Origin: Heptranchias perlo
Taxonomy: Eukaryota
Direction of reading: 5' to 3'
Assembly: GCF_035084215.1 (NCBI RefSeq)
Contig: NW_027139176.1
Location: 620,001 to 684,000, forward strand
Length of the DNA stretch: 64,000 nt
The notes below the pieces were generated by a model. The model was not told the DNA's origin. It saw nothing but the letters and a program-made list of their open reading frames with translations, and did no database searches. A program made the position numbers and the translations under genes. This document shows positions 5,321 to 42,982 of this stretch, one piece after another; the stretch's first letter is position 1; every line of letters starts with the position of its first letter.

Positions 5321-5545
5321 TCCTGCTCTGTTTGGACTTTGAACGTTTGCAGTTTGTGCGGTTGGAATATTTACTTTGTGGTTGGCTGGAGACTGCGCGC
5401 TGTGCTTTGCCCAAATACTATGTCACATCCGCCGGGACACTGAAGCGACTCGAGCCACTCTCAAGGCGTATTGACTCGGCGTTCAATTCTTACCAGTCCA
5501 GTGTCCAGGGTTTACAAAGTTTATATACACAGGGACGGAGCAGCA

Positions 5546-5591
5546 ATGCAGTTAATCGGTATCTGGGCTGTGTTTGGAGCATTTGTTACAG
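5546..5591 (+). CDS. TRAV: TCR V segment 1, leader exon (MQLIGIWAVFGAFVT-G)
   Basis: ATG at 5546 opens a hydrophobic 15-codon+1-nt exon ending at donor G|GTAATT (5592). A 92-nt phase-1 intron joins it in frame to the V exon. TATA-like ttatatac at ~5521. Confidence 0.88.
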
Positions 5592-5683
5592 GTAATTATT
5601 CTGGGACACGATTTGAGGCCAAAATTGAACATCACTGAATTTAAAAATGGTTTAATTTTGCCGTTGGTTTGTATTTAATGCAG

Positions 5684-5990
5684 GTCTGAGCCATGAAATC
5701 TCTGTTAGACAGCGACCCCCTACAGTAATTAGCACAGAAGGAAACATTATAACTTTAGACTGTATCTATTCCATTAACACGAGTTCCTACAGCCTGCTGT
5801 GGTCCCGCCAATACCCCGGCAGAGGACCGGAGATCCTCGTTCGCAAGTTTCCAAGTGGTTATCAGATTAAAGCGGATTTTGCTCGAAGCCGTCTCTCCTC
5901 TGCGCTGGACAAAGCGAATGCCATCTTCACCTTAACCGTCTCCAAACTGCGGACGACTGACGCGGCAATCTATTACTGCGCGCTGACTCT
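5684..5990 (+). CDS. TRAV: T-cell receptor alpha/delta-type variable segment 1, V exon (germline, open frame)
   Basis: After acceptor TGCAG|: (G)LSHEISVRQRPPTVISTEGNIITLDCIYSINTSSYSLLWSRQYPGRGPEILVRKFPSGYQIKADFARSRLSSALDKANAIFTLTVSKLRTTDAAIYYCALT. It has the Ig-V first Cys, Trp and DxAxYYC, and is followed directly by a 23-RSS. Alpha versus delta cannot be decided by eye. Confidence 0.9.
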
Positions 5991-6029
5991 CACAACGGTG
6001 GAAGTCAGTTGGGCCCTCGTACAAAAACT
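5991..6029 (+). other. 23-spacer recombination signal sequence of V segment 1
   Basis: Heptamer CACAACG (5991-5997), 23-nt spacer (5998-6020), nonamer ACAAAAACT (6021-6029). Confidence 0.9.
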
Positions 6030-7263
6030 AACTGATCCTCTGTGCCCTGGAGATCATCCCGATTCGGGGCTGTGCAGACAGGCAGTGAGAGGATGCTGTG
6101 CTCGACATACGGTGTGGAGTGAGGGTCACAGGGAAAACATATTACAGCGACCCAGAGACATTCTGACTGCAAATCGACCCAAAACTGCCATAAATCACCA
6201 GCTGGAGAAAGGATCGGGCTCGATTTCCGTTCCTCTTCGTGATGCGAACACGGGAGGAATTTTCCTTGCGCGTTATTTCTGGCGAAATGCTAAACATGTG
6301 CTCACTGTAAGGAAAATATTCTTTTTATATTCATTTCTTTATATTAACTTTTAGTTTTTGCCTGTAAAGTGAATTTCTGTTAGCATTATTCAGTTAGTCA
6401 GTTTAAATAAAAACCAGGCAGAGACAGTCTTTCCTGATAGGGGAGTTGAGTAGAGACAGAAACAGACTTGCTGTGTTCGAGCACCATCGATCTGTCAGCA
6501 GGGAGACAGGCGGCATTTCTATGGACACGTATCGATCAGCAAGCCGAGAAGCGATAACTTCAGATAGCGACTCCTCCGAGGACAGTTGTGGAAGGAATGT
6601 GGAACATTCCTGGAGGGGCTTTTGTTCTCTGTAACTGTCTCCAGTTCAATGATTTGTTTGTCAGTTCAGTCGTGGTGAAAACTCGGGGAGTGATTCTTGT
6701 TAAAACTGAAGTTATTGCAGCTAATTGAATGGGTTAATGCTGTGGGAATGTGAGACGTAGCAGGCTGGACAAGAGGTTTAAAAGTGGGTGTTACGAAAGA
6801 TACATTAGAATTAGACACAGTCAGATTAGCTGATCAGCAAGAGCTGACCAACTGACCGCTCACTCGTATTACCGTAAATGTGCTCTTAACTATATGTGTA
6901 ATTGTTATTAATAATAATCATTGTATGTTTAGTTCCAATGATAGCCAATAAATGTCTTTTGAACCCAATTATCTTGTGGAATAATTAGAAACTTATAAGT
7001 AAGAACATCCGTTCGCGAACATTACATTATATCGATAAAAGGAAATATCTCCAATGTCTATGCAATTTAACAAAAAGCAACCGGAGCAAACATCCCCCAA
7101 CAGCAGCAAAACCCGTGAATATCCCTACAATCATATTAATGGTGGGAAAATCGGGGTGGGGGGTATTCTGGGCGGTAACCCCACGGATTACGGCGGGTAT
7201 TATGGACGGTAAGACTTCCCTTTGTCCATCGGAGACATTAATCCATTATTGTAATCCGGGTAA

Positions 7264-7400
7264 CACTTCCGGTCCGCGTTCAACCTTCGCCATTGATCCG
7301 CCAACAATGTGCTGCTGATGACGCCGATAATCCTTCCACCAATGGTATTCTTTTTCGAAAGGACCAAACTGAACCACGTGACTAATGTCTGATGACGTCA
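7264..7400 (+). promoter_or_regulatory. Putative promoter of V segment 2 (ETS, E-box, CRE)
   Basis: ACTTCCGG (7265-7272), CACGTG (7375-7380) and a perfect CRE TGACGTCA (7393-7400), ~150 nt upstream of the leader ATG at 7551. CRE-type elements are typical of TCR V promoters. No perfect Ig octamer is present. Confidence 0.55.
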
Positions 7401-7550
7401 TATCAGATTGAGGTTGTGGATGTGTTTTCATATTTGGTCAGATAAACCAGTGAAGCAGGTCTGCTCCGTGTTATTGTCCCCGTGATAGTCTTGATTAATT
7501 CTTGCCACGATACTCTGATCGGATTTGTACAGAAACTGTCAGCACAGAAC

Positions 7551-7602
7551 ATGCAAGAATATTTCAGATTAGTACTTGTCATTCCAGCCAGCTTTATGAC
7601 AT
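7551..7602 (+). CDS. TRAV: TCR V segment 2, leader exon (MQEYFRLVLVIPASFMT-)
   Basis: ATG at 7551 opens a 52-nt exon ending at consensus donor T|GTAAGT (7603). Phase 1 matches the V exon at 10068. Confidence 0.72.
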
Positions 7603-7694
7603 GTAAGTATTTAAATGTTTGAGCTAATGGCGACAGTTGAAGTAACGCTACATTACATTGCTTTCCCAGAGAGGGGTAAAGATATTTATTACCG

Positions 7695-8540
7695 TATTTA
7701 TTGATGACTTGGTGAAGGAATTAAGTGTAGTGCACCCAAGTATGCAGATAGCACTAAATTAGGAGGGACAGTTAGTGGTGCAGATGGGAGGAGGGAGATG
7801 CAAAGGGACATAGACAGATTAAGAGAGTGGGCAAAACTATGGGAGATTGAGGTTAATGTGGGCAAGCGTGAGGTGATCCACTTTGGACCGAAAAAAGATA
7901 AATCAGAGCATTTTAAAACAGTGAGAATCTCGGAACTGGAGTGGAGAAAGGAGATTTGGGAGTCCAAGTACAGCATCATTTAAAACTGATAGATAGGTAC
8001 AGAAAGCATTCACAAGGGTGACTGGAATGTTGGCCTTTATCTCAAGCAGGCTAGAAAACAAATGTGAGGAAGTGATACAGAACCTTGGTCAGGCCCCATC
8101 TGGAGATACTGCGTTCAGTTCTGGGCACCTCAGGAAGGATAAACTGGCTTTGGAGTGGGTGAAGCGCAGATTAACCCGAATGATACAGGGGCCTAGAAGT
8201 TTGAATGATGAGGACAGATTGCATAAAGTTGGGTTTTATTCCCTTGAGTTTAGAAGATTGAGGGATTATCTGGTTAAGATGTTTAAAAAGTTAAAATGAT
8301 TCAATAGGGTGCATATGAAGAAAATATTCCTTGTGATGGCGGAATTAAGAAGGAGGGGTCATAGCCTTAAACAAAGAGCGAGGCCATTTAGGGAGAACTT
8401 TCAGGACTGAGATGCAGAGATTTTTGTTTGGTCCGGGTATCAAGGGAAATGGAGTCAGATACAGATCATCCATCATTTAATGGAATGGTGGAGCAGACCC
8501 TTAGGGCTGAATGGCCGACTCCTGTGCCGAAATTCCTGCG
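7695..8540 (+). mobile_element. Degenerate CR1 LINE fragment inside the leader-V intron
   Basis: Frameshifted RT remnants (KYADSTKLGG, MQRDIDRLREWAKLW, YSLEFRRLRD) followed by a CR1-type 3' end, gggctgaatggccgactcctgtgcc. Confidence 0.85.
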
Positions 8541-8542
8541 AT

Positions 8543-10044
8543 ACCTATTGGGACCGACTGGTGTTGACCGTCCGGTGACGGGACCTGTTGGGACCGACTG
8601 GTGTTGACCGTCCGGTGACGGGATCTGTTGGGACTGACTGGTGTTGACCGTCCGGTGACGGGACCTGTTGGGACTGACTGGTCTTGACTGCCCGGTGATG
8701 GGATCTGTTGGGACTGACTGGTGTTGACCGCCCGGTGACGGGACCTGTTGGGACTGACTGGTGTTGACCGTCCGGTGATGGGATCTGTTGGGACTGACTG
8801 ATGTTGACCGCCCGGTGACCGGACCTGTTGGGACTGACTGGTGTTGACCGCCCGGTGATGGGATCTGTTGGGACTGACTGGTGTTGACCGTCCGGTGACG
8901 GGACCTGTTGGGACTGACTGGTGTTGACCGTCCGGTGATAGGATCTGTTGGGACTGACTGGTGTTGACCGTCCGGTGACGGGACCTGTTGGGACTGACTG
9001 GTGTTGACCGCCCGGTGATGGGATCTGTTGGGACTGACTGGTGTTGACCGCCCGGTGACGGGACCTGTTAGGACTGACTGGTGTTGACCGCCCGGTGATG
9101 GGATCTGTTGGGACTGACTGATGTTGACCGCCCGGTGACCGGACCTGTTGGGACTGACTGGTGTTGACCGCCCGGTGATGGGATCTGTTGGGACTGACTG
9201 GTGTTGACCGTCCGGTGACGGGACCTGTTGGGACTGACTGGTGTTGACCGCCCGGTGATGGGATCTGTTGGGACTGACTGGTGTTGACCGCCCGGTGATG
9301 GGATCTGTTGGGACTGACTGGTGTTGACCGCCCGGTGACGGGACCTGTTGGGACTGACTGGTGTTCACCGCCCGGTGATGGGATCTGTTGGGACTGACTG
9401 ATGTTGACCGCCCGGTGACCGGACCTGTTGGGACTGACTGGTGTTGACCGCCCGGTGATGGGATCTGTTGGGACTGACTGGTGTTGACCGCCCGGTGACG
9501 GGACCTGTTGGGACTGACTGGTGTTGACCGCCCGGTGATGGGATCTGTTGGGACTGACTGATGTTGACCGCCCGGTGACCGGACCTGTTGGGACTGACTG
9601 GTGTTGACCGCCCGGTGATGGGATCTGTTGGGACTGACTGGTGTTGACCGTCCGGTGACGGGACCTGTTGGGACTGACTGGTGTTGACCGCCCGGTGATG
9701 GGATCTGTTGGGACTGACTGATGTTGACCGCCCGGTGATGGGATCTGTTGGGACTGACTGGTGTTGACCGCCCGGTGATGGGATCTGTTGGGACTGACTG
9801 GTGTTGACCGCCCGGTGACGGGACCTGTTGGGACTGACTGGTGTTGACCGCCCGGTGATGGGATCTGTTGGGACTGACTGATGTTGACCGCCCGGTGACC
9901 GGACCTGTTGGGACTGACTGGTGTTGACCGCCCGGTGACGGGACCTGTTGGGACTGACTGATGTTGACCGCCCAATGACGGGACCTGTTGGGACTGACTG
10001 GTGTTGACCGTCCTGTGATGGGATCTGTTGGGACTGACTGGTGT
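8543..10044. repeat. 40-bp minisatellite (~37 copies) GGA(C/T)CTGTTGGGACTGACTGGTGTTGACCG(C/T)CCGGTGA(C/T)G
   Basis: Direct 40-nt periodicity. It lies in the intron of V segment 2 and ends ~23 nt before the acceptor. Confidence 0.97.
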
Positions 10045-10067
10045 CTGTTTTGTTCCATTGATAACAG

Positions 10068-10350
10068 TGCGTGTTACAGGGAAAGAGGAAGTTGTACAAA
10101 CATTTCCGTCACAGCCTCCCAGTGAATGGAAAACCATAACTATTAATTGCCACACCAGCATTCCGTTCTCTGCGATATACTGGTTCGTGCAGGCTCCAAA
10201 CCAAAGCCCAAAGATGTTGATAATGGCATCGGAAAACGGTGAACAAGAAGGTCGGATTAAAGCCGTCAGTCAACGTTGGGAGAAGCGCAGCTCCCTGACT
10301 ATCGCGGCCTTACGTCTGACGGACACCGCGACCTACTTCTGTGTCGTTCA
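10068..10350 (+). CDS. TRAV: T-cell receptor alpha-type variable segment 2, V exon (germline, open frame)
   Basis: After ataacAG|: RVTGKEEVVQTFPSQPPSEWKTITINCHTSIPFSAIYWFVQAPNQSPKMLIMASENGEQEGRIKAVSQRWEKRSSLTIAALRLTDTATYFCVV. It has the Cys, WF.Q and DTATYFC landmarks. An alternative in-phase acceptor lies at 10079. Confidence 0.88.
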
Positions 10351-10389
10351 CACAGTGTAATAAGGAGCGGGAGAGTCCGTACAAGAACC
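10351..10389 (+). other. 23-spacer recombination signal sequence of V segment 2
   Basis: Consensus heptamer CACAGTG (10351-10357), 23-nt spacer, nonamer ACAAGAACC (10381-10389). Confidence 0.93.
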
Positions 10390-10615: not shown

Positions 10616-10752
10616 GGTGTGTTTCTTCAGCGCCTTTTACATTCACAGCCCGCTCCAACGCTCTTTCAGCTTGGTGAATTGTATTTTGAAGAGTAGTTAC
10701 GGTTCTTATAACGGTAAATACGGTCGGCATTTCACGTCCAGCGGGATCCCAC

Positions 10753-13700
10753 AAAGGGGGAGGGTGAGCAGGCAGAGGTCGTGGTCCACATTGGGACCAA
10801 CGACATAGGTAGGAAGGGAGATGAGGTCCTGCATCAAGAATTTAGGGAGCTAGGTAGCAGATTAAAGAGCAGGACCTCAAAGGTTGTAATCTCTGGATTA
10901 CTCCCAGTGCCACGGGCTAGTGAGTATAGAAATAGGAGGATAGAACAGATGAATGCGTGGCTAAAGAGTTGGTGCAGGAGGGAGGGTTTCAGTTTCCTGG
11001 ATCACTGGGCCTGCTTCTGGGGAAGGTGGGACTTGTACAAGTCGGACGGGTTGCATCTGAACCAGAGCGGGACAAATATCCTTGCGGGGAGGTTTGCTAG
11101 CACTGTTGGGGGGGGTTTAAACTAACTTGGCAGGGGGATGGGACACAGAGTGGAGCTACAATAGGGGGTGATGTGCAGCCAAATATTGAGAAAAAAACAA
11201 GTCAGCTTGGAAGACAGGGCAAATATGTAAGGGCAAGGCTGGATGGCATCTATTTTAATGCAAGGAGTCTTGCAAATAAGGTGGATGAACTGAAGGTGTT
11301 GATAAACACATGGGAGGATGATATTGTTGCTGTCACAGAGACATGGTTGAGGGAGGGGCAAGACTGGCAGCTCAATATTCCGGGGTACAGAATCTTCAGG
11401 CGAGACAGAGGGGGAGGTATAAGAGGAGGGGGGGTCGCAATATTAATTAAAGAATCAATTACTGCCATAAGGAGGGATGATATATTAGCAGGTTCCTCTA
11501 ATGAGGCCACATGGGTGGAGCTTAAAAACAAAAAGGGGGCAAGCACTTTGATGGGAGTGCACTATAGGCCCCCAAACAGTCAGGGGGAGATAGAGGAACA
11601 GATATGTAGGCAAATCTCAGAAAATTGTGCAAATAATAGGGTAATAATAGTGGGGGATTTCAACTTCCCCAATATTAACTGGGATACTCAGAGTGTAAAA
11701 GGCTTAGAGGGTACAAAATTCTTAACGTGCATCCAGGAGAGCTTTTTGAGCCAGCATGTAGAAAGTCCGACAAGAGAGGGGGCGGTACTGGACCTAATTC
11801 TAGGGAATGTGGCCGGCCAAGTGGAAGAAGTGCTAGTCGGTGAGCACTTTGGTGACAGTGACCATAATTCAGTGAGATTTAAGGTGGTCATGGAAAAGGA
11901 CAGGGAGGGGCCGGAAATAAAGGTTCTAAATTGGGGGAAGGCCGATTTTAATAGGATAAGGCAGGATCTGGCCAAAATGGACTGGGATCAGCTGCTTGTA
12001 GGAAAATCTGCATCGGAGCAATGGGAGTCTTTCAGAAGGGAGATTGAGACCATACAATGGCAACATGTTCCCGTGAAGGTCAAGGGTGGTTCCAAGAACT
12101 CCAGGGAACCTTGGATGTCAGGGGATATACGAGAATGGATTAGGAAAAAAAGGAGGGCTTTTGGCAGATACAAAAGGCTAAGGACGGAGGAAGCCCTAGA
12201 GGAGTACAAAAAGTGCAGGGGGATACTTAAAAAAGAAATTAGGAGATCAAGGAGGGGCCATGAAAAAACACTGGCGAGCAAAATAAAGGAAAATCCTAAG
12301 ATGTTTTATAAGTATATTAAGGGTAAGAGGATAACACGGGAAAAAATAGGGCCCATTAGGGACAAAAATGGCAATCTGTGTGTGGAGCCGGAAGATGTAG
12401 GAGGGGTTCTAAATGAATTTTTGGCATCTGTTTTCACTATGGAGAAGGACGATGTAGACATAGAAATACGACAGGGGGACTGTGATATACTCGAACATAT
12501 TAACATCGAGCGGGAGGAGGTATTGGCGGTTTTAGCAGGCCTAAAAATGGATAAATCCCCAGGCCCGGACGAAATGTATCCCAGGCTACTGTGTGAGGCA
12601 AAGGAGGAGATTGCGGGGGCTCTAACACATATATTCAGAACCTCTCTGGCCACAGGGGATGTGCCAGAGGACTGGAGAACCGCTAATGTGGTACCATTAT
12701 TCAAGAAGGGGAGTAGGGAAAAACCGGAGAACTACAGGCCAGTGAGGAAAATTATTGGAAAAAATTCTGAAGGACAAAATTAGTCTCCACTTGGAGAAGC
12801 AAGGATTAATCAGGGATAGTCAACATGGCTTTGTCAAGGGAAGATCATGTCTGACTAATTTGATTGAATTTTTTGAGGGGGTGACTAGGCGTGTGGATGA
12901 GGGTAACGCAGTGGATGTGGTATACATGGATTTCAGTAAGGCCTTCGATAAAGTTCCGCACAGGAGACTGGTCACGAAGGTACGAGCCCATGGAGTCCAG
13001 GCTGCCTTGGCACTTTGGATACAAAACTGGCTTAGTGGCAGAAGGCAGAGGGTGATGGTCGAAGGTTGTTTTTGTGACTGGAAGCCTGTGGCCAGTGGGG
13101 TACCACAGGGATCTCTGCTGGGGCCCTTGCTGTTTGTGGTCTGCATTAACGACTTGGATATGAATGTAAAAGGTATGATCAGTAAGTTCGCTGATGATAC
13201 AAAAATTGGTAGGGTGGTAAATAGCGAGGAGGATAGCCTCAGTCTGCAGGACGATATAGATGGGTTGGTCAGATGGGCCGAACAGTGGCAAATGGAATTT
13301 AACCCGGAAAAGTGCGAGGTGATGCACTTTGGAGGGACTAACAAGGCAAGGGAATACACAATGAATGGGAAGACCCTAGGCAAGACAGAGGGTCAGAGGG
13401 ATCTTGGTGTGCAAGTTCACAGATCCCTGAAGGCGGCGGAACAGGTAGATAAGGTGGTAAAGAAGGCATATGGGATACTTGCCTTTATTAGCCGAGGCAT
13501 AGAATATCAGAGCAACGAGGTTATGATGGAGCTGTATAAAACACTGGTTAGGCCACAGCTGGAGTACTGTGTGCAGTTCTGGTCGCCACACTACAGGAAG
13601 GATGTGATCGCTTTGGAGAGGGTGCAGAGGAGATTCACCAGGATGTAACCAGGGCTGGAGCGCTTCAGCTATGAAGAGAGACTGGGAAGATTGGGTTTGT

Positions 13701-13770
13701 TTTCCTTGGAGCAGAGGAGGCTGAGGGGGGACATGATTGAGGTGTACAAAATTATGAGGGGCATAGATAA
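10753..13770 (+). mobile_element. CR1 LINE: ORF1 esterase C-terminus plus ORF2 (APE endonuclease-RT), inactivated and 3'-truncated
   Basis: ORF1 SGNH/esterase (VHIGTND..DGLHLN). ORF2 APE motifs (NARSL, VTETW, GDFN, SDH) and RT motifs (GVPQGS, KFADD). Frameshifting deletion near 12745, premature TAA at 13646, and an abrupt end into the satellite at ~13770. Confidence 0.95.
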
Positions 13771-16700
13771 ATATATCAATACAACTCCGGCAGGATTCTA
13801 CTGTCCTAAATATATCAACACAACTCCGGCAGGATTCTACTGTCCTAAGTATATCAATACAACTCCGGCAGGATTCTAATGTCCCAAATATATCAATACA
13901 ACTCTGGCAGGATTCTACTGTCCGAAATATATCAACACAACTCCGGCAGGATTCTACTGTCCTCAATATATCAATACAACTCCGGCAGGATTCTAATGTC
14001 CCAAATATATCAATACAACTCTGGCAGGATTCTACTGTCCCAAATATATCAATACAACTCCGGCAGGATTCTACTGTCCACAATATATCAATACAACTCG
14101 GGCAGGATTCTACTGTCCTCAATAGATCATTAAAACTCCGGCAGGATTCTACTGTCCTAAATATATCAATACAACTCCGGCGGGATTCAACAGTCCGAAA
14201 TATATCAACACAACTCCGGCAGGATTCTACTGTCCAAATATATCAATACAACTCCGGCAGGAATCTAATGTCCCAAATATATCAATACAACTCCGGCAGG
14301 ATTCTACTGTCCTAAATATATCAATACAACTCTGGCAGGATTCTACTGTCCGAAATATATCAATACAACTCTGGCAGGATTCTACTGTCCGCAATATAAA
14401 TCAATACAACTTCGGCAGGATTCTCCTGTCCCAAATATATCAATACAACTCTGGCAGGATTCTACTGTCCGAAATATATCAATACAACTCCGGCAGGATT
14501 CGACTGTCCAAATATATCAACACAACTCCGGCAGGATTCGACTGTCCTAAATATATCAATACAACTCCGGCAGGATTCTACTGTCCTAAATATATCAATA
14601 CAACTCCGGCAGGATTCTACTGTCCGAAATATATCAATACAACTCCGGCAGGATTCTACTGTCCCAAATATATCAATACAACTCCGGCAGGATTCTACTG
14701 TCCTAAATCTATCAACACAACTCCGGCAGGATTCTACTGTCCTAAATATATCAATACAACTCCGGCAGGATTCTACTGTCCTAAATATATCAACCAACTC
14801 CGGCAGGATTCTACTGTCCCAAATATATCAATACAACTCCGGCAGGATTCTACTGTCCCAAATATATCAACACAACTCCGGCAGGAATCTATTGTCCAAA
14901 TATATCAATACAACTCCGGCAGGATTCTACTGTCCCAAATATATCAACACAACTCCGGCAGGATTCTACTGTGTAAAATATATCAATACAACTCCGGCAG
15001 GATTCTACTGTCCAAATATATCAATACAACTCCGGCAGGATTCTACTGTCCAAATATATCAATACAACTCCGGCAGGATTCTACTGTCCCAAATATATCA
15101 ATACAACTCTGGCAGGATTCTACTGTCCGAAATATATCAATACAACTTCGGCAGGATTCGACTGTCCCAAATATATCAATACAACTCTGGCAGGATTCCA
15201 CTGTCCGAAATATATCAATACAACTCCGGCAGGATTCTACTGTCCAAATATATCAACACAACTCCGGCAGGATTCGACTGTCCTAAATATATCAATACAA
15301 CTCCGGCAGGAATCTACTGTCCTAAATATATCAATAAAACTCAGGCAGGATTCTACTGTCCGAAATATATCAATACAACTCCGGCAGGATTCGACTGTCC
15401 TAAATATATCAACACAACTCCGGCAGGATTCTACTGTCCTAAATATATCAATACAACTCCGGCAGGATTCTACTGTCCGAAATATATCAACACAACTCCG
15501 GCAGGATTCTACTGTCCCAAATATATCAATACAACTCCGGCAGGATTCTACTGTCCTAAATATATCAACACAACTCCGGCAGGATTCTACTGTCCCAAAT
15601 ATATCAAAACAACTCCGGCATGATTCTACTGTCCCAAATATATCAACACAACTCCGGCAGGAATCTATTGTCCAAATATATCAATACAACTCCGGCAGGA
15701 TTCTACTGTCCCAAATATATCAACACAACTCCGGCAGGATTCTACTGTCCCAAATATATCAATACAACTCCGGCAGGATTCTACTGTCCCAAATATATCA
15801 ACACAACTCCGGCAGGAATCTATTGTCCAAATATATCAATACAACTCCGGCAGGAATCTATTGTCCAAATATATCAATACAACTCCGGCAGGATTCTACT
15901 GTCCTAAATATATCAATACAACTCCGGCAGGATTCTACTGTCCCAAATTTATCAATACAACTCCGGCAGGAATCTATTGTCCAAATATATCAATACAACT
16001 CCGGCAGGATTCCACTGTCCAAATATATCAATTCAACTCCGGCAGGAATCTATTGTCCAAATATATCAATACAACTCCGGCAGGATTCTACTGTCCCAAA
16101 TATATCAATACAACTCCGGCAGGAATCTATTGTCCAAATATATCAATACAACTCCGGCAGGAATCTATTGTCCAAATATATCAATGCAACTCCGGCAGGA
16201 TTCTACTGTCCTAAATATATCAATACAACTCCGGCAGGATTCTACTGTCCCAAATATGTCAATACAACTCCGGCAGGAATCTATTGTCCAAATATATCAA
16301 TACAACTCCGCCAGGATTCTACTGTCCGAAATATATCAACACAACTCCGGCAGGATTCTACTGTCCCAAATATATCAATACAACTCCGGCAGGATTCGAC
16401 TGTCCTCAATATATCAACACAACTCTGGCAGGATTCTACTGTCCAAATATATCAACACAACTCCGGCAGGATTCTACTGTCCCAAATATATCAATAAAAA
16501 TCCGGCAGGATTCTACTGTCCTCAATATATCAACACAACTCGGGCAGGATTCTACTGTCCTCAATATATCAACACAACTCTGGCAGAATTCTACTGTCCA
16601 AATATATCAATACAACTCGTGCAGGATTCTACTGTCCTAAATACATCAATACAACTCCGGCAGGATTCTACTGTCCCAAATATATCAATACAATTTCGGC

Positions 16701-19700
16701 AGGATTCTACTGTCCAAATATATCAACACAACTCCGGCAGGATTCTACTGTCCCAAACATATCAACACAACTCCGGCAGGTTTCTACTGTCCTAAATATA
16801 TCAATACAACTCGGGCAGGATTCTACTGTCCTCAATATATCAATACAACTCCGGCAGGATTCTACTGTCCTAAATATATCAATACAACTCGGGCAGGATT
16901 CTACTGTCCTAAATATATCAATACAACTCGGGCAGGATTCTGCTGTCCTAAATATATCAATACAACTCCGGCAGGATTCTACTGTCCCAAATATATCAAT
17001 ACAACTCCGGCAGGATTCTACTGTCCTAAATATATCAACACAACTCCGGCAGGATTCTACTGTCCAAATATATCAACACAACTCCGGCAGGATTCTACTG
17101 TCCCAAATATATCAATACAACTCCGGCAGGATTCTACTTTCCAAAATATATCAACACAACTCCGGCAGGATTCTACTGTCCTCAATATATCAATACAACT
17201 CCGGCAGGATTCTACTTTCCAAAATATATCAACACAACTCCGGCAGGATTCTACTGTCCAAATATATCAATACAACTCCGGCAGGATTCTACTGTCCAAA
17301 TATATCAATACAACTCCGGCAGGATTCTACTGTCCTAAATATATCAATACAACCCCGGCAGGATTCTACTGTCCAAATATATCAATACAACTCCGGCAGG
17401 ATTCTACTTTCCAAATATATCAATACAACTCCGGCAGGATTCTACTGTCCAAATATATCATCACAACTCCGGCAGGATTCTACTGTCCCAAATATATCAA
17501 TACAACTCCGGCAGGATTCTACTGTCCTAAATATATCAATACAAATCCGGCAGGATTCTACTGTCCTAAATATATCAATACAACCCCGGCAGGATTCTAC
17601 TGTCCAAATATATCAATACAACTCCGGCAGGATTCTACTGTCCAAATATATCAATACAACTCCGGCAGGATTCTACTGTCCTCAATATATCAATACAACT
17701 CCGGCAGGATTCTACTGTCCAAATATATCAATACAACTCCGGCAGGATTCTACTGTCCCAAATATATCAACACAACTCCGGCAGGATTCTCCTGTCCAAA
17801 TATATCAATACAACTCCGGCAGGATTCTACTTTCCAAATATATCAATACAACTCCGGCAGGATTCTACTTTCTAAAATATATCAACACAACTCCGGCAGG
17901 ATTCTCCTGTCCCAAATATATCAATACAACTCCGGCAGGATTCTACTGTCCCAAATATATCAATACAACTCCGGCAGGATTCTACTTTCCAAATATATCA
18001 ATACAACTCCGGCAGGATTCTACTTTCCAAAATATATCAACACAACTCCGGCAGGATTCTGCTGTCCAAATATATCAATACAACTCCGGCAGGATTCTAC
18101 TTTCCAAAATATATCAACACAACTCCGGCAGGATTCTACTGTCCTCAATATATCAATACAACTCCGGCAGGATTCTACTTTCCAAAATATATCAACACAA
18201 CTCCGGCAGGATTCTACTGTCCTCAATATATCAATACAATTCCGGCAGGATTCTACGTTCCAAAATATATCAACACAACTCCGGCAGGATTCTACTGTCC
18301 CAAATATATCAATACAACTCCGGCAGGATTCTACTGTCCCAAATATATCAATACAACCCCGGCAGGATTCTACTGTCCAAATATATCAATCCAACTCCGG
18401 CAGGATTCTACTGTCCTAAATATATCAATACAACTCCGGCAGGATTCTACTGTCCGAAATATATCAATACAACTCCGGCAGGATTCTACTGTCCCAAATA
18501 TATCAATACAACTCCGGCAGGATTCTACTGTCCGAAATATATCAATACAACTCCGGCAGGATTCTACTGTCCCAAATATATCAATACAACTCTGGCAGGA
18601 TTCTACTGTCCAAATATATCAATACAACCCCGGCAGGATTCTACTGTCCAAATATATCAATACAACTCCGGCAGGATTCTCCTGTCCCAAATATATCAAT
18701 ACAACTCCGGCAGGATTCTACTGTCCTAAATATATCAACACAACTCCGGCAGGATTCTACTGTCCTAAGTATATCAATACAACTCCGGCAGGATTCTACA
18801 ACCCAAATATATCAATACAACTCCGGCAGGATTCTACTGTCCCAAATATATCAACACAACTGCGGCAGGATTCTACTGTCCCAAACATATCAATACAACT
18901 CCGGCAGGATTCTACTGTCCTCAATATATCAACACAACTCCGGCAGGATTCTACTGTCCCAAATATATCAATACAACTCCGGCAGGATTCTACTGTCCAA
19001 ATATATCAATACAACTCCGGCAGGATTCTACTGTCCAAATATATCAATACAACTCCGGCAGGATTCTACTGTCCAAATATATCAATACAACTCCTGCAGG
19101 ATTCTACTGTCCCAAATATATCAATACAACTCCGGCAGGATTCTACTGTCCAAATATATCAATACAACTCCGGCAGGATTCTACTGTCCTAAATATATCA
19201 ATACAACTCCGGCAGGATTCTACTGTCCAAATATATCAATACAACTCCGGCAGGATTCTACTGTCCCAAATATATCAATACAACTCTGGCAGGATTCTAC
19301 TGTCCAAATATATCAACACAACTCCGGCAGGATTCTACTGTCCAAATATATCAATACAACTCCGGCAGGATTCTACTGTTCAAATATATCAATACAACTC
19401 CGGCAGGATTCTACTGTCCAAATATATCAATACAACTCCGGCAGGATTCTATTGTCCAAATATATCAATACAATTCCGGCAGGATTCTACTGTCCAAATA
19501 TATCAACACAACTCCGGCAGGATTCTACTGTCCAAATATATCAATACAATTCCGGCAGGATTCTACTGTCCAAATATATCAATACAACTCCGGCAGGATT
19601 CTACTGTCCAAATATATCAATACAATTCCGGCAGGATTCTACTGTCCAAATATATCAATACAACTCCGGCAGGATTCTACTGTCCAAATATATCAATACA

Positions 19701-22700
19701 AATCGGGCAGGATTCTACTGTCCTCAATATATCAATACAACTCCGGCAGGATTCTACTGTCCAAATATATCAATACAACTCCGGCAGGATTCTACTTTCC
19801 AAATATATCAATACAATTCCGGCAGGATTCTACTGTCCAAATATATCAACACAACTCCGGCAGGATTCTACTGTCCAAATATATCAATACAATTCCGGCA
19901 GGATTCTACTGTCCAAATATATCAATACAACTCCGGCAGGATTCTACTGTCCAAATATATCAATACAATGCCGGCAGGATTCTACTGTCCAAATATATCA
20001 ATACAACTCCGGCAGGATTCTACTGTCCAAATATATCAATACAACTCCGGCAGGATTCTACTGTCCAAATATATCAACACAACTCCGGCAGGATTCTACT
20101 GTCCCAAATATATCAATACAACTCCGGCAGGATTCTACTGTCCAAATATATCAATACAACTTGGGCAGGATTCTACTGTCCAAATATATCAATACAATTC
20201 CGGCAGGATTCTACTGTCCAAATATATCAATACAACTCCGGCAGGATTCTAATGTCCCAAATATATCAATACAACTCCGGCAGGATTCGACTGTCCAAAT
20301 ATATCAATACAACTCCGGCAGGATTCTACTGTCCAAATATATCAACACAACTCCGGCAGGATTCTACTGTCCAAATATATCAATACAACTCCGGCAGGAT
20401 TCTACTGTCCAAATATATCAATACAAGTCCGGCAGGATTCTACTGTCCCAAATATATCAATACAACTCGGGCAGGATTCTACTGTCCCAAATATATCAAT
20501 ACAACTCCGGCAGGATTCGACTGTCCAAATATATCAATACAACTCCGGCAGGATTCTAATGTCCCAAATATATCAATACAACTCCGGCAGGATTCGACTG
20601 TCCAAATATATCAATACAACTCCGGCAGGATTCTACTGTCCAAATATATCAACACAACTCCGGCAGGATTCTACTGTCCAAATATATCAATACAACTCCG
20701 GCAGGATTCTACTGTCCAAATATATCAATACAAGTCCGGCAGGATTCTACTGTCCGAAATATATCAATACAACTCCGGCAGGATTCTACTGTCCCAAATA
20801 TATCAACACATGTCCGGCAGGTTTCTACTGTCCCAAATATATCAATACAACTCCGGCAGGATTCTACTGTCCAAATATATCAATACAAGTCCGGCAGGAT
20901 TCTACTGTCCCTAATATATCAATGCAACTCCCGCAGGATTCTACTGTCCAAATATATCAATACAAGTCCGGCAGGATTCTACTGTCGCAAATATATCAAT
21001 ACAACTCCGGCAGGATTCTACTGTCCAAATATATCAATACAAGTCCGGCAGGATACTACTGTCCAAATATATCAACACAACTCCGGCAGGATTCTACTGT
21101 CCAAATATACCAATACAACTCCGGCAGGATTCGACTGTCCAAATATATCAATACAACTCCGGCAGGATTCTACTGTCCAAATATACCAATACAACTCCGG
21201 CAGGATTCTACTGTCCAAATATATCAACACAACTCCGGCAGGATTCTACTATCGCAAATATATCAATGCAACTCCCGCAGGATTCTACTGTCCCAAATAT
21301 ATCAATACAACTCCTGCAGGATTCTACTGTCCAAATATACCAATCCAACTCCGACAGGATTCTCCTGTCCAAATATATCAACACAACTCCGGCAGGATTC
21401 TACTGTCCAAATATATCAATACAACTCCGGCAGGATTCTACTGTCCCAAATATATCAACACAACTCCGGCAGGATTCTACTGTCCAAATATATCAACACA
21501 ACTCCGGCAGGATTCTACTGACCAAATATATCAATACAACTCCGGCAGGATTCTACTGTCCAAATATATCAATGCAACTCCGGCAGGATTCTACTGTCCC
21601 AAATATATCAATACAACTCCGGCAGGATTCTACTGTCCTAAATATATCAATACAACTCCGGCAGGATTCTACTGTCCAAATATATCAATACAACTCCGGC
21701 AGGATTCTACTGTCCAAATATATCAATACAATTCCGGCAGGATTCTACTGTCCAAATATATCAACACAAATCCGGCAGGATTCTACTGTCCCCAATATAT
21801 CAATACAACTCTGGCAGGATTCTACTGTCCAAATATATCAATACAACTCCGGCAGGATTCTACTGTCCAAATATATCAATACAATGCCGGCAGGATTCTA
21901 CTGTCCAAATATATCAATACAACTCCGGCAGGATTCTACTGTCCAAATATATCAATACAACTCCGGCAGGATTCTACTGTCCAAATATATCAACACAACT
22001 CCGGCAGGATTCTACTGTCCCAAATATATCAATACAACTCCGGCAGGATTCTACTGTCCAAATATATCAATACAACTTGGGCAGGATTCTACTGTCCAAA
22101 TATATCAATACAATTCCGGCAGGATTCTGCTGTCCAAATATATCAATACAACTCCGGCAGGATTCTAATGTACCAAATATATCAATACAACTCTGGCAGG
22201 ATTCGACTGTCCAAATATATCAATACAACTCCGGCAGGATTCTACTGTCCAAATATATCAACACAACTCCGGCAGGATTCTACTGTCCAAATATATCAAT
22301 ACAACTCCGGCAGGATTCTACTGTCCAAATATATCAATACAAGTCCGGCAGGATTCTACTGTCCCAAATATATCAATACAACTCAGGCAGGATTGTACTG
22401 TCCGAAATATATCAATACAACTCCGGCAGGATTCTACTGTCCCAAATATATCAACACATGTCCGGCAGGTTTCTACTGTCCCAAATATATCAATACAACT
22501 CCAGCAGGATTCTACTGTCCAAATATATCAATACAAGTCCGGCAGGATTCTACTGTCCCTAATATATCAATGCAACTCCCGCAGGATTCTACTGTCCAAA
22601 TATATCAATACAAGTCCGGCAGGATTCTACTATCGCAAATATATCAATACAACTCCGGCAGGATTCTACTGTCCAAATATATCAATACAAGTCCGGCAGG

Positions 22701-25700
22701 ATACCACTGTCCAAATATATCAACACAACTCCGGCAGCATTCTACTGTCCAAATATACCAATACAACTCCGGCAGGATTCTACTGTCCAAATATATCAAT
22801 ACAACTCCGGCAGGATTCTACTGTCCAAATATACCAATACAACTCCGGCAGGATTCTACTGTCCAAATATATCAACACAACTCCGGCAGGATTCTACTAT
22901 CGCAAATATATCAATGCAACTCCCGCAGGATTCTACTGTCCCAAATATATCAATACAACTCCTGCAGGATTCTACTGTCCAAATATACCAATCCAACTCC
23001 GACAGGATTCTCCTGTCCAAATATATCAACACAACTCCGGCAGGATTCTACTGTCCAAATATATCAATACAACTCCGTCAGGATTCTACTGTCCCAAATA
23101 TATCAACACAACTCCGGCAGGATTCTACTGTCCAAATATATCAACACAACTCCGGCAGGATTCTACTGACCAAATATATCAATACAACTCCGGCAGGATT
23201 CTACTGTCCAAATATATCAATGCAACTCCGGCAGGATTCTACTGTCCCAAATATATCAATACAACTCCGGCAGGATTCTACTGTCCTAAATATATCAACA
23301 CAACTCCGGCAGGATTCTACTGTCCCAAATATATCAATACAACTCCGGCAGGATTCTACTGTCCAAATATATCAATACAACTCCGGCAGGATTCTACTGT
23401 CCCAAATATATCAACACAACTCCGGCAGGATTCTACTGTCCCAAATATATCAATACAACTCGGGCAGGATTCTACTGTCCCAAATATATCAATACAACTC
23501 CGGCAGGATTCTACTGTCCAAAATATATCAATACAACTCCGGCAGGATTCTCCTGTCCTCAATATATCAATACAACTCCGGCAGGATTCTACTGTCCAAA
23601 ATATATCAATACAACTCCGGCAGGATTCTACTGTCCCAAATATATCAACACAACTCCGGCAGGATTCTACTGTCCCAAATATATCAATACAACTCCGGCA
23701 GGATTCGACTGTCCAAAATATATCAATACAACTCGGGCAGGATTCTACTGTCCAAATATATCAACACAACTCCGGCAGGATTCTACTGTCCCAAATATAT
23801 CAATACAACTCCGGCAGGATTCTACTGTCCAAAATATATCAATACAACTCCGGCAGGATTCTACTGTCCAAATATATCAATACAACTCCGGCAGGATTCT
23901 ACTGTCCTAAATATATCAATACAACTCCGGCAGGATTCTACTGTCCCAAATATATCAATACAACTCCGGCAGGATTCTACTGTCCAAAATATATCAATAC
24001 AACTCCGGCAGGATTCTACTGTCCAAATATATCAACACAACTCCGGCAGGATTCTACTGTCCTAAATATATCAATACAACTCCTGCAGGATTCTACTGTC
24101 CAAAATATATCCATACAACTCCGGCAGGATTCTACTGTCCCAAATATAACAACACAACTCCGGCAGGATTCTACTGTCCCAAATATATCAACACAACTCC
24201 GGCAGGATTCTACTGTCCCAAATATATCAATACAACTCCGGCAGGATTCTACTGTCCCAAATATATCAATACATCTCCGGCAGGATTCTACTGTCCAAAA
24301 TATATCAATACAACTCCGGCAGGATTCTACTGTCCAAATATATCAACACAACTCCGGCAGGATTCTACTGTCCCAAATATATCAATACAACTCCGGCAGG
24401 ATTCTACTGTCCAAAATATATCAATACAACTCCGGCAGGATTCTACTGTCCCAAATATATCAACACAACTCCGGCAGGATTCTACTGTCCAAAATATATC
24501 AATACAACTCCGGCAGGATTCTACTGTCCAAAATATATCAATACAACTCCGGCAGGATTCTACTGTCCCAAATATATCACTACAACTCCGGCAGGATTCT
24601 GCTGTCCAAAATATATCAATACAACTCCGGCAGGATTCTACTGTCCCAAATATATCAATACAACTCCGGCAGGATTCTACTGTCCCAAATATATCAATAC
24701 AACTCCGGCAGGATTCTACTGTCCAAAATATATCAATACAACTCCGGCAGGATTCTACTGTCCAAATATATCAACACAACTCCGGCAGGATTCTACTGTC
24801 CCAAATATATCAATACAACTCCGGCAGGATTCTACTGTCCAAAATATATCAATACAAGTCCGGCAGGATTCTACTGTCCAAAATATATCAATACAACTCC
24901 GGCAGGATTCTACTGTCCCAAATATATCAACACAACTCCGGCAGGATTCTACTGTCCCAAATATATCAATACAACTCCGGCAGGATTCTACTGTCCCAAA
25001 TATATCAATACAACTCCGGCAGGATTCTACTGTCCAAAATATATCAATACAACTCCGGCAGGATTCTACTGTCCCAAATATATCAACACAACTCCGGCAG
25101 GATTCTACTGTCCCAAATATATCAATACAACTCCGGCAGGATTCTACTGTCCAAATATATCAACACAACTCCGGCAGGATTCTACTGTCCCAAATATATC
25201 AATACAACTCGGGCAGGATTCTACTGTCCCAAATATATCAACACAACTCCGGCAGGATTCTACTGTTCCAAATATATCAATACAACTCCGGCAGGATTCT
25301 ACTGTCCAAATATATCAATACAACTCCGGCAGGATTCTACTGTCCAAAATATATCAATACAACTCGGGCAGGATTCTACTGTCCCAAATATATCAATACA
25401 ACTCCGGCAGGATTCTACTGTCCTAAATATATCAATACAACTGCGGCAGGATTCTAATGTCCGAAATATATCAATACAACTCGGGCAGGATTCTACTGTC
25501 CCAAATATATCAATACAACTCCGGCAGGATTCTACTGTCCCAAATATATCAATACAACTCCGGCAGGATTCTGCTGTCCTAAATATATCAATACAACTCC
25601 GGCAGGATTCTGCTGTCCTAAATATATCAATACAACTCTGGCAGGATTCAACAGTCCAAAATATATCAATACAACTCCGGCATGATTCTGCTGTCCTAAA

Positions 25701-27826
25701 TATATCAACACAACTCCGGCAGGATTCTGCTGTCCCAAATATATCAATACAACTCCGGCAGGATTCTGCTGTCCCAAATATATCAATACAACTCCGGCAG
25801 GATTCTACTGTCCAAATATATCAACACAACTCCGGCAGGATTCTACTGTCCAAATATATCAATACAAATCCGGCAGGATTCTACTGTCCAAATATATCAA
25901 TACAACTCCGGCAGGATTCTACTGTCCTAAATATATCAATACAACTCCGGCAGGATTCTACTGTCCAAATATATCAATACAACTCCGGCAGGTTTCTACT
26001 GTCCTAAATATATCAACACAACTCCGGCAGGATTCTACTGTCCCAAATATATCAATACAACTCTGGCAGGATTCTACTGTCCAAATATATCAATACAACT
26101 GCGGCAGGATTCTACTGTCCCAAATATATCAACACAACTCCGGCAGGATTCTACTGTCCCAAATATATCAATACAACTCCGGCAGGATTCTACTGTCCAA
26201 ATATATCAACACAACTGCGGCAGGATTCTACTGTCCCAAATATATCAACACAACTCCGGCAGGATTCTACTGTCCCAAATATATCAATACAACTCTGGCA
26301 GGATTCTACTGTCCAAATATATCAATACAACTGCGGCAGGATTCTACTGTCCCAAATATATCAACACAACTCCGGCAGGATTCTACTGTCCCAAATATAT
26401 CAATACAACTCCGGCAGGATTCTACTGTCCCAAATATATCAATACAACTCCGGCAGGATTCTACTGTCCAAATATATCAATACAACTCCGGCAGGATTCT
26501 ACTGTCCAAATATTTCAATACAACTCCGGCAGGATTCTACTGTCCAAATATATCAATACAACTCCGGCAGGATTCTACTGTCCCAAATATATCAATACAA
26601 CTCCGGCAGGATTCTACTGTCCAAATATATCAATACAACTCCGGCAGGATTCTACTGTCCAAATATTTCAATACAACTCCGGCAGGATTCTACTGTCCAA
26701 ATATATCAATACAACTCCGGCAGGATTCTACTGTCCCAAATATATCAATACAACTCCGGCAGGATTCTACTGTCCAAATATATCAATACAACTCCGGCAG
26801 GATTCTACTGTCCAAATATATCAATACAACTCCGGCAGGATTCTACTGTCCAAATATTTCAATACAACTCCGGCAGGATTCTACTGTCCAAATATATCAA
26901 TACAACTCCGGCAGGATTCTACTGTCCCAAATATATCAACATAACTCCGGCAGGATTCTACTGTCCCAAATATATCAATACAACTCCGGCAGGATTCTAC
27001 TGTCCAAATATATCAACACAACTCCGGCAGGATTCTACTGTCCTAAATATATCAATACAACTCCGGCAGGATTCTACTGTCCCAAATATATCAACATAAC
27101 TCCGGCAGGATTCTACTGTCCCAAATATATCAATACAACTCCGGCAGGATTCTACTGTCCAAATATATCAACACAACTCCGGCAGGATTCTACTGTCCCA
27201 AATATATCAATACAACTGCGGCAGGATTCTACTGTCCCAAATATATCAATACAACTCCGGCAGGATTCTACTGTCCAAATATTTCAATACAACTCCGGCA
27301 GGATTCTACTGTCCAAATATATCAATACAACTGCGGCAGGATTCTACTGTCCCAAATATATCAATACAACTCCGGCAGGATTCTACTGTCCAAATATTTC
27401 AATACAACTCCGGCAGGATTCTACTGTCCAAATATATCAATACAACTCCGGCAGGATTCTACTGTCCCAAATATATCAATACAACTCCGGCAGGATTCTA
27501 CTGTCCCAAATATATCAATACAACTCCGGCAGGATTCTACTGTCCAAATATTTCAATACAACTCCGGCAGGATTCTACTGTCCCAAATATATCAATACAA
27601 CTCCGGCAGGATTCTACTGTCCCAAATATATCAACATAACTCCGGCAGGATTCTACTGTCCCAAATATATCAATACAACTCCGGCAGGATTCTACTGTCC
27701 AAATATATCAACACAACTCCGGCAGGATTCTACTGTCCTAAATATATCAGTACAACTCCGGCAGGATTCCACTGTCCAAATATATCAACACAACTCCGGA
27801 AGGATTCTACTGTCCTAAATATATCA
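13769..27826. repeat. 38/39-bp satellite, ~14 kb (~365 units) AAATATATCAATACAACTCCGGCAGGATTCTACTGTCC(N)
   Basis: Continuous tandem periodicity with a +/-1-nt variable position after TGTCC. Confidence 0.98.
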
Positions 27827-27845
27827 GATGTGATAGCATTTGTGT

Positions 27846-28870
27846 GTTCAATGACTGTAACTAACATTAATGGTGATGTTACAGAATCTGTTTGTTCAAT
27901 GACTGTAACTAACATTAATGGTGATGTTGCAGAATCTGTTTATTCAATGACTGTAACTAACATTAATGGTGATGTTACAGAATCTGTTTATTCCATGACT
28001 GTAACTAACATTAATGGTGATGTTACAGAATCTGTTTGTTCAATGACTGTAACTAACATTAATGGTGATGTTACAGAATCTGTTTATTCAATGACTGTAA
28101 CTAACATTAATGGTGATGTTACAGAATCTGTTCAATGACTGTAACTAACATTAATGGTGATGTTACAGAATCTGTTTATTCAATGACTGTAACTAACATT
28201 AATGGTGATGTTACAGAATCTGTTCAATGACTGTAACTAACATTAATGGTGATGTTGCAGAATCTGTTTATTCAATGACTGTAACTAACATTAATGGTGA
28301 TGTTACAGAATCTGTTTATTCAATGACTGTAACTAACATTAATGGTGATGTTACAGAATCTGTTCAATGACTGTAACTAACATTAATGGTGATGTTACAG
28401 AATCTGTTTATTCAATGACTGTAACTAACATTAATGGTGATGTTACAGAATCTGTTCAATGACTGTAACTAACATTAATGGTGATGTTACAGAATCTGTT
28501 TATTCAATGACTGTAACTAACATTAATGGTGATGTTACAGAATCTGTTTATTCAGTGACTGTAACTAACATTAATGGTGATGTTACAGAATCTGTTTATT
28601 CAATGACTGTAACTAACATTAATGGTGATGTTACAGAATCTGTTTATTCAGTGACTGTAACTAACATTAATGGTGATGTTACAGAATCTGTTTATTCAAT
28701 GACTGTAACTAACATTAATGGTGATGTTACAGAATCTATTCAATGACTGTAACTAACATTAATGGTGATGTTACAGAATCTGTTCATTCAATGACTGTAA
28801 CTAACATTAATGGTGATGTTACAGAATCTGTTTATTCAATGACTGTAACTAACATTAATGGTGATGTAAC
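27846..28870. repeat. 48-bp minisatellite (~22 units, some 44-bp) ATGACTGTAACTAACATTAATGGTGATGTTACAGAATCTGTTTATTCA
   Basis: Direct periodicity. It abuts the 38/39-bp satellite on the left and the GPCR promoter on the right. Confidence 0.96.
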
Positions 28871-42917: not shown

Positions 42918-42982
42918 TTTGGTAACCACTGGCAAATATTCACCAGGTGCTCGCACATTTCCTGGAGTTGAATGCGAGTACA

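What the first reader, a model, noticed from the sequence alone, without database searches (positions are those of the whole stretch)
5546..10389. Two divergent, RSS-intact TCR V segments with no D/J/C in 54 kb downstream, next to a GPR139-like gene and satellite blocks
Seen: two complete leader + V + 23-RSS units in the same orientation with low similarity to each other. Downstream I found no 12-RSS/FGxG J segment or C exon, only a CR1, satellites and a GPCR. Known: V 23-RSS plus CRE-type promoter and YYCAL/YFCVV ends fit TRA/TRD; shark Ig clusters would have D/J within a few kb. Inference: this is an edge of the shark TRA/TRD V array, an inverted V block, or an orphon V cluster that could still be a RAG substrate. 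The layout echoes mammalian TRA being flanked by olfactory-receptor GPCRs.
Basis: partly seen in the sequence, partly recalled or inferred. Interest (0 to 1): 0.7.

Follow-up and report, generated by a model that had tools for sequence, protein, structure and literature searches.

The report
Stranded shark T-cell variable-gene island
Three largely intact T-cell-receptor variable gene segments sit alone in satellite DNA with no joining or constant gene on their contig, and are likely far outliers of the shark alpha/delta receptor locus like those already mapped in other sharks and rays; whether they still recombine is untested.

Summary
Observation confirmed: two leader + V + 23-RSS units lie at 5546-6029 and 7551-10389. 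A third V lies 4.5 kb before the window. The three form an island on a 712-kb contig that is 72% tandem repeat, with no D, J or C in the 632 kb read. A second haplotype contig has the same island (five copies of the third V), so misassembly is unlikely. The canonical TRA/TRD locus lies on another contig, and its V array ends there, so this is not its edge. Each island V falls in a different TRA/TRD clade with no close paralogue (at most 51% identity). V1 keeps the primordial V-alpha end (RSS at position 15, T8G9). Best reading: distal outlying TRA/TRD Vs of the elasmobranch antigen-receptor chromosome, a layout already tabulated for white shark and stingray (PMC12227049). Linkage and rearrangement are not shown; an orphon remains possible. 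The olfactory-receptor analogy fails: the GPCR belongs to a very large dispersed family and this copy has a premature stop. This scan earlier noted the third V and its GPCR from the adjacent window (e1-9939587).

The parts
5520..5527 (+). TATA-like TTTATATA just upstream of the V1 ATG (promoter role inferred)
   Evidence: sequence
5546..5591 (+). V1 leader exon (46 nt, phase-1 donor)
5684..5990 (+). V1 exon: open TRA/TRD V-set domain, ends YYCALT with T8G9 and RSS at position 15
5991..6029 (+). V1 23-RSS, CACAACG / ACAAAAACT
7375..7400 (+). E-box CACGTG (7375) and full CRE TGACGTCA (7393), 158 nt before the V2 ATG (function inferred)
   Evidence: a full CRE lies within 300 nt of 12 of 91 C240 V leaders called
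7551..7602 (+). V2 leader exon (52 nt, phase-1 donor GTAAGT)
7603..10067 (+). V2 leader intron, 2,465 nt, swollen by a LINE fragment (about 7700-8540) and a 40-mer satellite (8543-10044) that ends 23 nt before the acceptor
10068..10350 (+). V2 exon: open TRA/TRD V-set domain, ends YFCVV, RSS at position 12, no T8G9
10351..10389 (+). V2 23-RSS, CACAGTG / ACAAGAACC
10718..13768 (+). CR1-type LINE (family name recalled); a 96%-identical inverted copy lies upstream of the island at C1009:596026-599033
13769..28867 (.). 39-mer satellite (13769-27826) and 48-mer satellite (27847-28867)
32656..33570 (+).
33774..64000 (.). Successive satellites (46-, 49-, 54-, 24-, 30- and 36-mer)

Best explanation
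This is an island of three T-cell-receptor alpha/delta V gene segments, each the only member of its subgroup found in this genome, set in satellite DNA away from the main V array, and it is likely a distal outlier on the antigen-receptor chromosome whose Vs (V1 above all) would be joined by RAG to the alpha J segments over a long distance. Shown: gene anatomy, isolation on the contig in both haplotypes, TRA/TRD affinity, RSS scores within the range of array Vs. Inferred: that the island was moved or pushed away from the array rather than copied from it, helped by the duplicating satellite-GPCR unit that brackets it; that it is on the same chromosome as C240; that it still rearranges.
For: Only 3 V hits, and no J, D or C, in 631,630 of 711,630 bases of C1009 (the J profile and D scan recovered C240's J array and its D-delta as controls). 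The same island in the same satellite order lies on C1079. TRAC-like and TRDC-like exons were found only on C240 and on C820. Tree of 83 rows: V2 groups with 4 C240 Vs (99/91), V0 with 17 (98/93), V1 with 3 (89/82, weaker); none joins the TRB, TRG or Ig outgroups. Best paralogues in the genome: 47% (V1), at most 41% (V2), at most 51% (V0), against a median nearest-neighbour identity of 89% among 119 C240 Vs. Open frames, leaders and splice sites despite such divergence imply selection over most of their history (inference). RSS profile scores 20.1, 22.2 and 23.1 equal or exceed those of 11, 23 and 25 of 79 array RSS; the best of the other CAC sites among 440 scores 4.1. V1 has the RSS at position 15 and T8G9, the V-alpha signature of PMC10322711, and offers an in-frame microhomology of 3 nt or more to 23 of 40 J-alpha. 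PMC12227049 Table S1 lists TCRad Vs singly or in twos and threes up to about 8.7 Mb from the TCR C gene in white shark and about 5 Mb in stingray. The GPCR's closest paralogues (83-85%) include copies on C1414, a contig with many C1-set exons.
Against: No sequence link between C1009 and C240: their sampled ends carry different repeats, and the 3' terminal satellite continues on C1714, not C240; the 5' terminal repeat matched C1009 only. The heptamers of V1 and V0 occur in 0 of 123 array V candidates, though V1's occurs at one J-alpha. V2 and V0 lack T8G9, which 91 of 119 array Vs have; V2's RSS position (12) is not among the array values; V0 ends in TAG before its heptamer in 5 of 6 copies. 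The leader introns of V2 and V0 are invaded by repeats (2,465 and 2,801 nt against an array median of 89). The contig is 72% tandem repeat against 5.7% for the array, which would suit closed chromatin (inference). In five V searches this was the only TRA/TRD V island found outside C240 and C383 (four of them scored only 150 candidates), unlike the wide scatter tabulated for white shark. No shark orthologue was retrieved to tie these Vs to the published outliers. The GPCR family is so widespread that its C1414 link is weak.
Confidence: 0.55

Rival explanations
1. A true orphon: the block was carried to another chromosome, probably with the mobile satellite-GPCR unit, recently enough that the frames have not decayed, and it no longer contributes to receptors.
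For: No J or C on the contig and no link to C240. Direct repeats of a duplicating unit on both sides, also found with its 46-mer satellite on C49, C1605 and C1414. Early decay signs: odd heptamers, swollen introns, terminal TAG in V0. Human orphons can keep ORFs without use (PMC7555362 passages).
Against: An orphon made by copying should leave a close parent in the array; none exceeds 51% identity. All three frames are open up to the RSS in both haplotypes, and V1 keeps its microhomology end. Same-chromosome dispersal is the published pattern.
Confidence: 0.22
2. Same chromosome, but dormant: satellite growth has sealed the Vs off and they are rarely or never rearranged now.
For: 72% tandem repeat; satellite within 23 nt of V2's acceptor; V0 tandemly multiplied 1 versus 5 times between haplotypes with its satellites; the neighbouring GPCR carries a nonsense allele.
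Against: V1's leader, intron, exon and RSS show 0 differences in 484 nt between haplotypes, against 7 in 1,521 nt in the spacer (too few to test). RSS scores lie within the array range.
Confidence: 0.15
3. The Vs belong to an unassembled or unrecognised J-C unit further downstream, beyond the contig end.
For: All three point the same way, toward a contig end 81 kb beyond V2; the next contig is probably C1714, which I could not read. This genome does hold extra TRDC-like and TRAC-like exons.
Against: All six extra TRDC-like exons and the extra TRAC-like exon lie on C240 (the latter also on C820); C1714 appears in none of the V or C hit lists.
Confidence: 0.05
4. Misassembly, or an ordinary internal part of the contiguous V array.
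For: Contig-level assembly in very repetitive DNA; both contigs come from one assembly.
Against: Two contigs that differ in SNPs, satellite lengths and V0 copy number give the same order of unique blocks and satellites on both sides. The array on C240 ends at about 1.60 Mb and is followed by 115 kb with no further V.
Confidence: 0.03

Closest known systems
Dispersed TCR alpha/delta V exons of the elasmobranch antigen-receptor complex (AgRC; Flajnik et al. 2025, PMC12227049, text and Table S1)
   Same: TRA/TRD-type Vs alone or in groups of two or three, far from the J-C core, with no D, J or C of their own.
   Different: Here there is no IgH cluster on the contig, the setting is satellite and GPCR repeats, linkage to the core is not shown, and only one such island was found. 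The parts of the paper that I read give gene-model coordinates and do not test whether those Vs rearrange.
Canonical TRA/TRD translocon V segments (this genome's C240; bamboo shark TRAV in PMC10322711)
   Same: Split leader, V-set exon, 23-RSS; V1 has the RSS-15 and T8G9 end; each island V nests among array Vs in the tree.
   Different: Not in the array; singleton subgroups at 51% identity or less; unusual heptamers in two; long repeat-filled leader introns in two.
IG/TR orphons (IMGT definition; human IGHV, IGKV, IGLV orphons, PMC7555362)
   Same: V genes outside the main locus that may keep open frames.
   Different: Orphons are defined as not contributing to chain synthesis and (from my own knowledge) are usually close copies of locus genes; these have no close parent, and neither location nor disuse is shown.
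Mammalian TRA/TRD flanked by olfactory-receptor genes (recalled)
   Same: A class A GPCR next to TRA-type Vs.
   Different: The GPCR hit only 7tm_1, belongs to a family with thousands of candidate copies, and flanks a stray island, not the array.

Membership tests
TRA/TRD V gene segment | Split leader with phase-1 intron and open V-set exon with Cys, Trp and Y/F-x-Cys | tested here: met
   (V0 open up to a terminal TAG)
TRA/TRD V gene segment | 3' RSS with 23-nt spacer and CAC start | tested here: met
   scores in the lower third of array RSS
TRA/TRD V gene segment | Groups with TRA/TRD-locus Vs rather than TRB, TRG or Ig Vs | tested here: met
   (own-genome references only; outgroup labels inferred from their sequence and RSS; V1's node is 89/82; no nurse shark set was used)
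TRA/TRD V gene segment | V-alpha end geometry (RSS at 15, T8G9) | tested here: inconclusive
   met for V1, not met for V0 and V2; PMC10322711 notes that V-alpha and V-delta cannot be told apart confidently from the genome
TRA/TRD V gene segment | Found rearranged to J (or D-J) and C in T cells | not testable with these tools
   only assembled contigs of three runs from one sample were on offer
Member of the contiguous TRA/TRD V array | Lies within the V array, continuous with D, J and C | tested here: not met
Dispersed AgRC V outlier | Isolated small group of TRA/TRD Vs away from the core | tested here: met
Dispersed AgRC V outlier | On the same chromosome as TRAC/TRDC and the IgH clusters | tested here: inconclusive
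   no end-to-end link; only a weak hint from GPCR paralogues
Orphon (IMGT) | Outside the major locus | tested here: inconclusive
   outside the array contig; chromosome unknown
Orphon (IMGT) | Does not take part in chain synthesis | not testable with these tools
   needs repertoire sequencing
Shark Ig minicluster or NAR-TCR cassette | D and J (and C) within a few kb of the V | tested here: not met
Non-rearranging VJ gene (UrIg type) | V and J in one exon, no RSS | tested here: not met
   each V ends in a 23-RSS with no J strand
Olfactory receptor (for the flanking GPCR) | Olfactory-receptor Pfam family | tested here: not met
   one search returned 7tm_1 only

The most novel reading that the evidence does not exclude
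Three unique V subgroups are kept functional in a satellite-walled island, several hundred kb or a whole chromosome away from the J segments, and are routinely joined to J-alpha across that heterochromatin or in trans, with a 1-versus-5 copy-number polymorphism of V0 that changes the repertoire between haplotypes.
Probability: 0.2. Interest if true: 0.65.

Novelty: new member of a known kind. Interest (0 to 1): 0.33.

Why it matters
Dispersed TRA/TRD Vs are tabulated in several elasmobranch genomes, but I found no test of whether they rearrange. This island is a clean test case: its Vs are so unlike any array V that one read of V joined to J would be unambiguous. A positive result would show RAG joining across a large satellite block or between chromosomes in normal shark T cells, and might explain part of the expressed V-alpha that does not map to the annotated locus (V identified in 68.8% of bamboo shark TRA sequences, PMC10322711 Suppl. 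Table 1; that gap may equally reflect a fragmented assembly). A negative result makes it an ordinary stranded V cluster.

Tried and rejected
RNA: no RNA holder was listed for window 5480-6060. Contigs of three same-sample runs gave no cover of the V1 exons or the V2 leader while they did hold spliced TRAC. Homologue searches found no close relative: V1 near-length none, longer one salmonid multi-V protein at 32%, V2 none, representatives at most 47% among the best 150; no shark orthologue could be placed. PDB: V2's single-domain hits were TCR alpha chains; V1's 60 shown hits were all multi-V antibody constructs. Haplotype differences are too few for a selection test (V1 exon 0 of 307 nt, V2 exon 2 of 283). 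DNA comparison of the island with the C240 array gave only repeat-like multi-copy matches, so no donor site; the V1-V2 unique DNA occurs only on C1009 and C1079. Contig linking by terminal repeats pointed to C1714 (82; 100 of 289 matches listed) and found nothing for the 5' end. The bamboo shark TRAV table gives coordinates, not sequences, so orthology could not be tested (73, part 1 of 12). Paper searches for a shark TCR orphon and for shark GPR139 (56) listed nothing on either; PMC11406177 passages were not useful. The RSS scans skipped overlapping CAC sites and missed V2's RSS; one search repeats them correctly. mis-sliced four V0 copies; one search repeats that step. My checkpoint note giving a 30-Mb distance in catshark is wrong: catshark TCRA is on an unplaced scaffold in that table.
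Full report
OBSERVATION. Both units are real. V1 has its ATG at 5546, a 46-nt leader, a 92-nt intron, an open V exon (5684-5990) and a 23-RSS CACAACG/ACAAAAACT at 5991. V2 has its ATG at 7551, a 52-nt leader, a 2,465-nt intron holding a LINE fragment and a 40-mer satellite, an open V exon (10068-10350) and a 23-RSS CACAGTG/ACAAGAACC at 10351. Both are Pfam V-set and share 27 of 94 residues. Two 23-RSS in the first 13.8 kb exceed chance: shuffled mean 0.11, two or more in 0 of 200. A full CRE precedes V2 only.

CONTEXT. The window is C1009:620001-684000 of a 711,630-base contig in a 3.25-Gb assembly. That the animal is a shark or ray is inferred from its Ig clusters and multiple TRDC-like exons; I did not identify it. 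A third V (V0) lies at C1009:615182-615528, with an 82-nt leader at 612299, a 2,801-nt intron, an open frame and a TAG just before a CACCGCG heptamer. I read 631,630 of the 711,630 bases; the 80 kb unread lie between stretches of one 34-mer satellite. What was read is 72% tandem repeat, against 5.7% for the canonical array. A V profile found only these three Vs. A J profile built from 45 C240 Js gave two hits at E above 1 on C1009 and 82 on the control region. The D scan found none on C1009 or C1079 and recovered the one D-delta on C240. Four C-exon queries gave nothing below E 0.2 on C1009. The rest of the contig holds LINEs, 84-bp zinc-finger-type repeats (label recalled) and satellites.

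NOT A MISASSEMBLY. C1079 carries the same island with the same order of satellites and unique blocks at about 99% identity, different satellite lengths, and five tandem V0 copies instead of one; all five are open up to the last codon and one ends in CAG instead of TAG. I read C1079 from 330,001 to its end and sampled four 10-kb stretches before that. Both contigs come from one assembly, and no spanning reads were available.

NOT THE ARRAY EDGE. C240 (1,715,135 bases) holds the canonical locus: TRAC at 717.5 kb, 40 J-alpha at 723-767 kb, TRDC at 792 kb, 5 J-delta, a D-delta at 804.5 kb and Vs from 817 kb to 1.60 Mb. In the 640 kb of the V region that I fetched there are 123 V-RSS candidates, 85 on one strand and 38 on the other. 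After the last V come a tandem array of a different GPCR and satellites for 115 kb. TRAC-like exons occur only on C240 (two, one also on C820) and TRDC-like exons only on C240 (seven). The 3' terminal satellite of both island contigs continues on C1714; no match on C240 is listed (100 of 289 shown), and C240's ends carry other repeats. The island is therefore at least 81 kb plus an unknown gap from any J on its 3' side and over 600 kb on its 5' side.

WHAT THE Vs ARE. In a tree of 83 rows (59 C240 Vs left from 119 after an 80% redundancy filter, 21 outgroup Vs from the same genome, 3 island Vs; 98 columns, so many forks are open) the island Vs fall in three different places among C240 Vs, never together, and not with the TRB, TRG or Ig rows: V2 99/91, V0 98/93, V1 89/82. 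Each is a long single branch. Best identities in the genome are 47%, at most 41% and at most 51%. Among 119 array Vs the median nearest neighbour is 89%, and 9 are below 55%, so singletons also exist in the array. The island is thus not a recent copy of an array block; it holds the only representatives found of three subgroups. On a heptamer-nonamer profile the island RSS score 20.1 (V0), 22.2 (V1) and 23.1 (V2), at or above 11, 23 and 25 of 79 distinct array RSS (median 25.2); the best unrelated site among 440 scores 4.1. PMC10322711 (passages, sections 7 and 21) describes a primordial V-alpha end with the RSS at position 15 and T8G9 pairing with J T1G2. V1 has both and offers an in-frame microhomology of 3 nt or more to 23 of 40 J-alpha (array median 6); V0 (position 16) and V2 (position 12) lack T8G9, which 91 of 119 array Vs have. 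Mean V trimming in bamboo shark TRA is about 3 nt, so V0's terminal TAG could be removed in joining (inference).

THE GPCR. It has 4,536 first-look candidates, and the 134 scored lie on dozens of contigs. A second copy (88% protein identity) with the same 48-mer and 46-mer satellites lies on the other side of the island in the same orientation, and the three closest paralogues I fetched (C49, C1605, C1414) also carry the 46-mer. It behaves as a duplicating unit. The window's copy has a premature TGA that the other haplotype lacks. The olfactory-receptor parallel is not supported.

MECHANISM. Shown: anatomy, isolation, TRA/TRD affinity, two haplotypes, bracketing direct repeats. Inferred: a small block of old V subgroups was displaced from the array, or pushed from it by satellite growth, with the GPCR-satellite unit as a substrate for unequal exchange; unequal crossover likewise explains the 1-versus-5 V0 copies. 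Open frames, leaders and RSS at about 50% divergence from the nearest paralogue mean selection for most of their history, but cannot date the move. I put 0.55 on a same-chromosome outlier still used by long-range joining, 0.22 on an orphon elsewhere, 0.15 on same-chromosome but dormant, 0.05 on a hidden downstream J-C and 0.03 on an artefact. Against use are the heptamers seen in 0 of 123 array V candidates, the repeat-swollen introns, V0's stop and the satellite setting.

COMPARISON WITH WHAT IS KNOWN. PMC12227049 (parts 1-3 of 8, passages, all of Table S1) states that TCR alpha/delta-type V exons occur between IgH clusters. Its table has white shark TCRad Vs at 11.7, 12.8, 15.0, 15.7, 16.3 and 17.0 Mb with the TCR C gene model at 8.2-8.35 Mb, and stingray Vs at 21.0-22.5 Mb with C at 26.15-26.35 Mb. 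PMC10751288 (passages) notes TCR and Ig genes on unplaced scaffolds in elasmobranch assemblies. PMC5931798 (passages) found only a small part of the nurse shark germline Vs on BACs. PMC7555362 (passages) defines orphons as not contributing to chains. Searches listed no paper on a shark TRAV orphon island or on rearrangement of the distal Vs; the library lacks most subscription papers.

VERDICT. A real, well-formed feature and a new member of a known kind. Its value is as a clean test of whether distal shark Vs rearrange. Interest 0.33; 0.65 if routine joining across the satellite block or in trans were shown (probability 0.2).

Noticed in passing
G000:C1009:612299-615528 (L030); C1079:395281-428410: Third V (V0) with a TAG just before its heptamer; one copy on C1009 and five tandem copies on C1079, one of them ending in CAG.
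   Followed up: yes
window 32686-32688: Premature TGA in the GPCR exon; the other haplotype and the upstream paralogue have CGA.
   Followed up: yes
G000:C240:635138-635395 (+) and C820:14950-15207: Second TRAC-like exon, 79% identical, facing the main TRAC about 82 kb away.
   Followed up: no
G000:C240:1160164-1476825: Six extra TRDC-like exons (64-66% identity) scattered in the V array, probably NAR-TCR-type miniclusters.
   Followed up: no
G000:C240:1609035-1652536 (L057-L062): Tandem array of a different class A GPCR, four copies at about 14-kb spacing, right beyond the distal end of the real TRA/TRD V array.
   Followed up: no
G000:C240:1057185-1105300: Two IgM-like C clusters embedded in the TRA/TRD V array.
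   Followed up: partly
G000:C1286 near 4.95 Mb and 8.9 Mb: Two similar blocks of TRB-like Vs about 4 Mb apart.
   Followed up: no
G000:C1009:698103-698552 (-): Fragment resembling an aurora-kinase C-terminal exon (resemblance recalled), present in both haplotypes.
   Followed up: no
G000:C1009:114762-115238 (-): Short retroviral env-like piece (resemblance recalled) among LINEs and satellites.
   Followed up: no
window 13769-27826 and 42983-64000: Satellite lengths differ greatly between haplotypes: 39-mer 14 kb versus 37 kb; 36-mer about 28 kb versus 2.5 kb.
   Followed up: partly
window 6335-7030: An old interspersed repeat (67-86% identity at many loci) between V1 and V2; it accounts for the only RNA-contig cover there.
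   Followed up: partly
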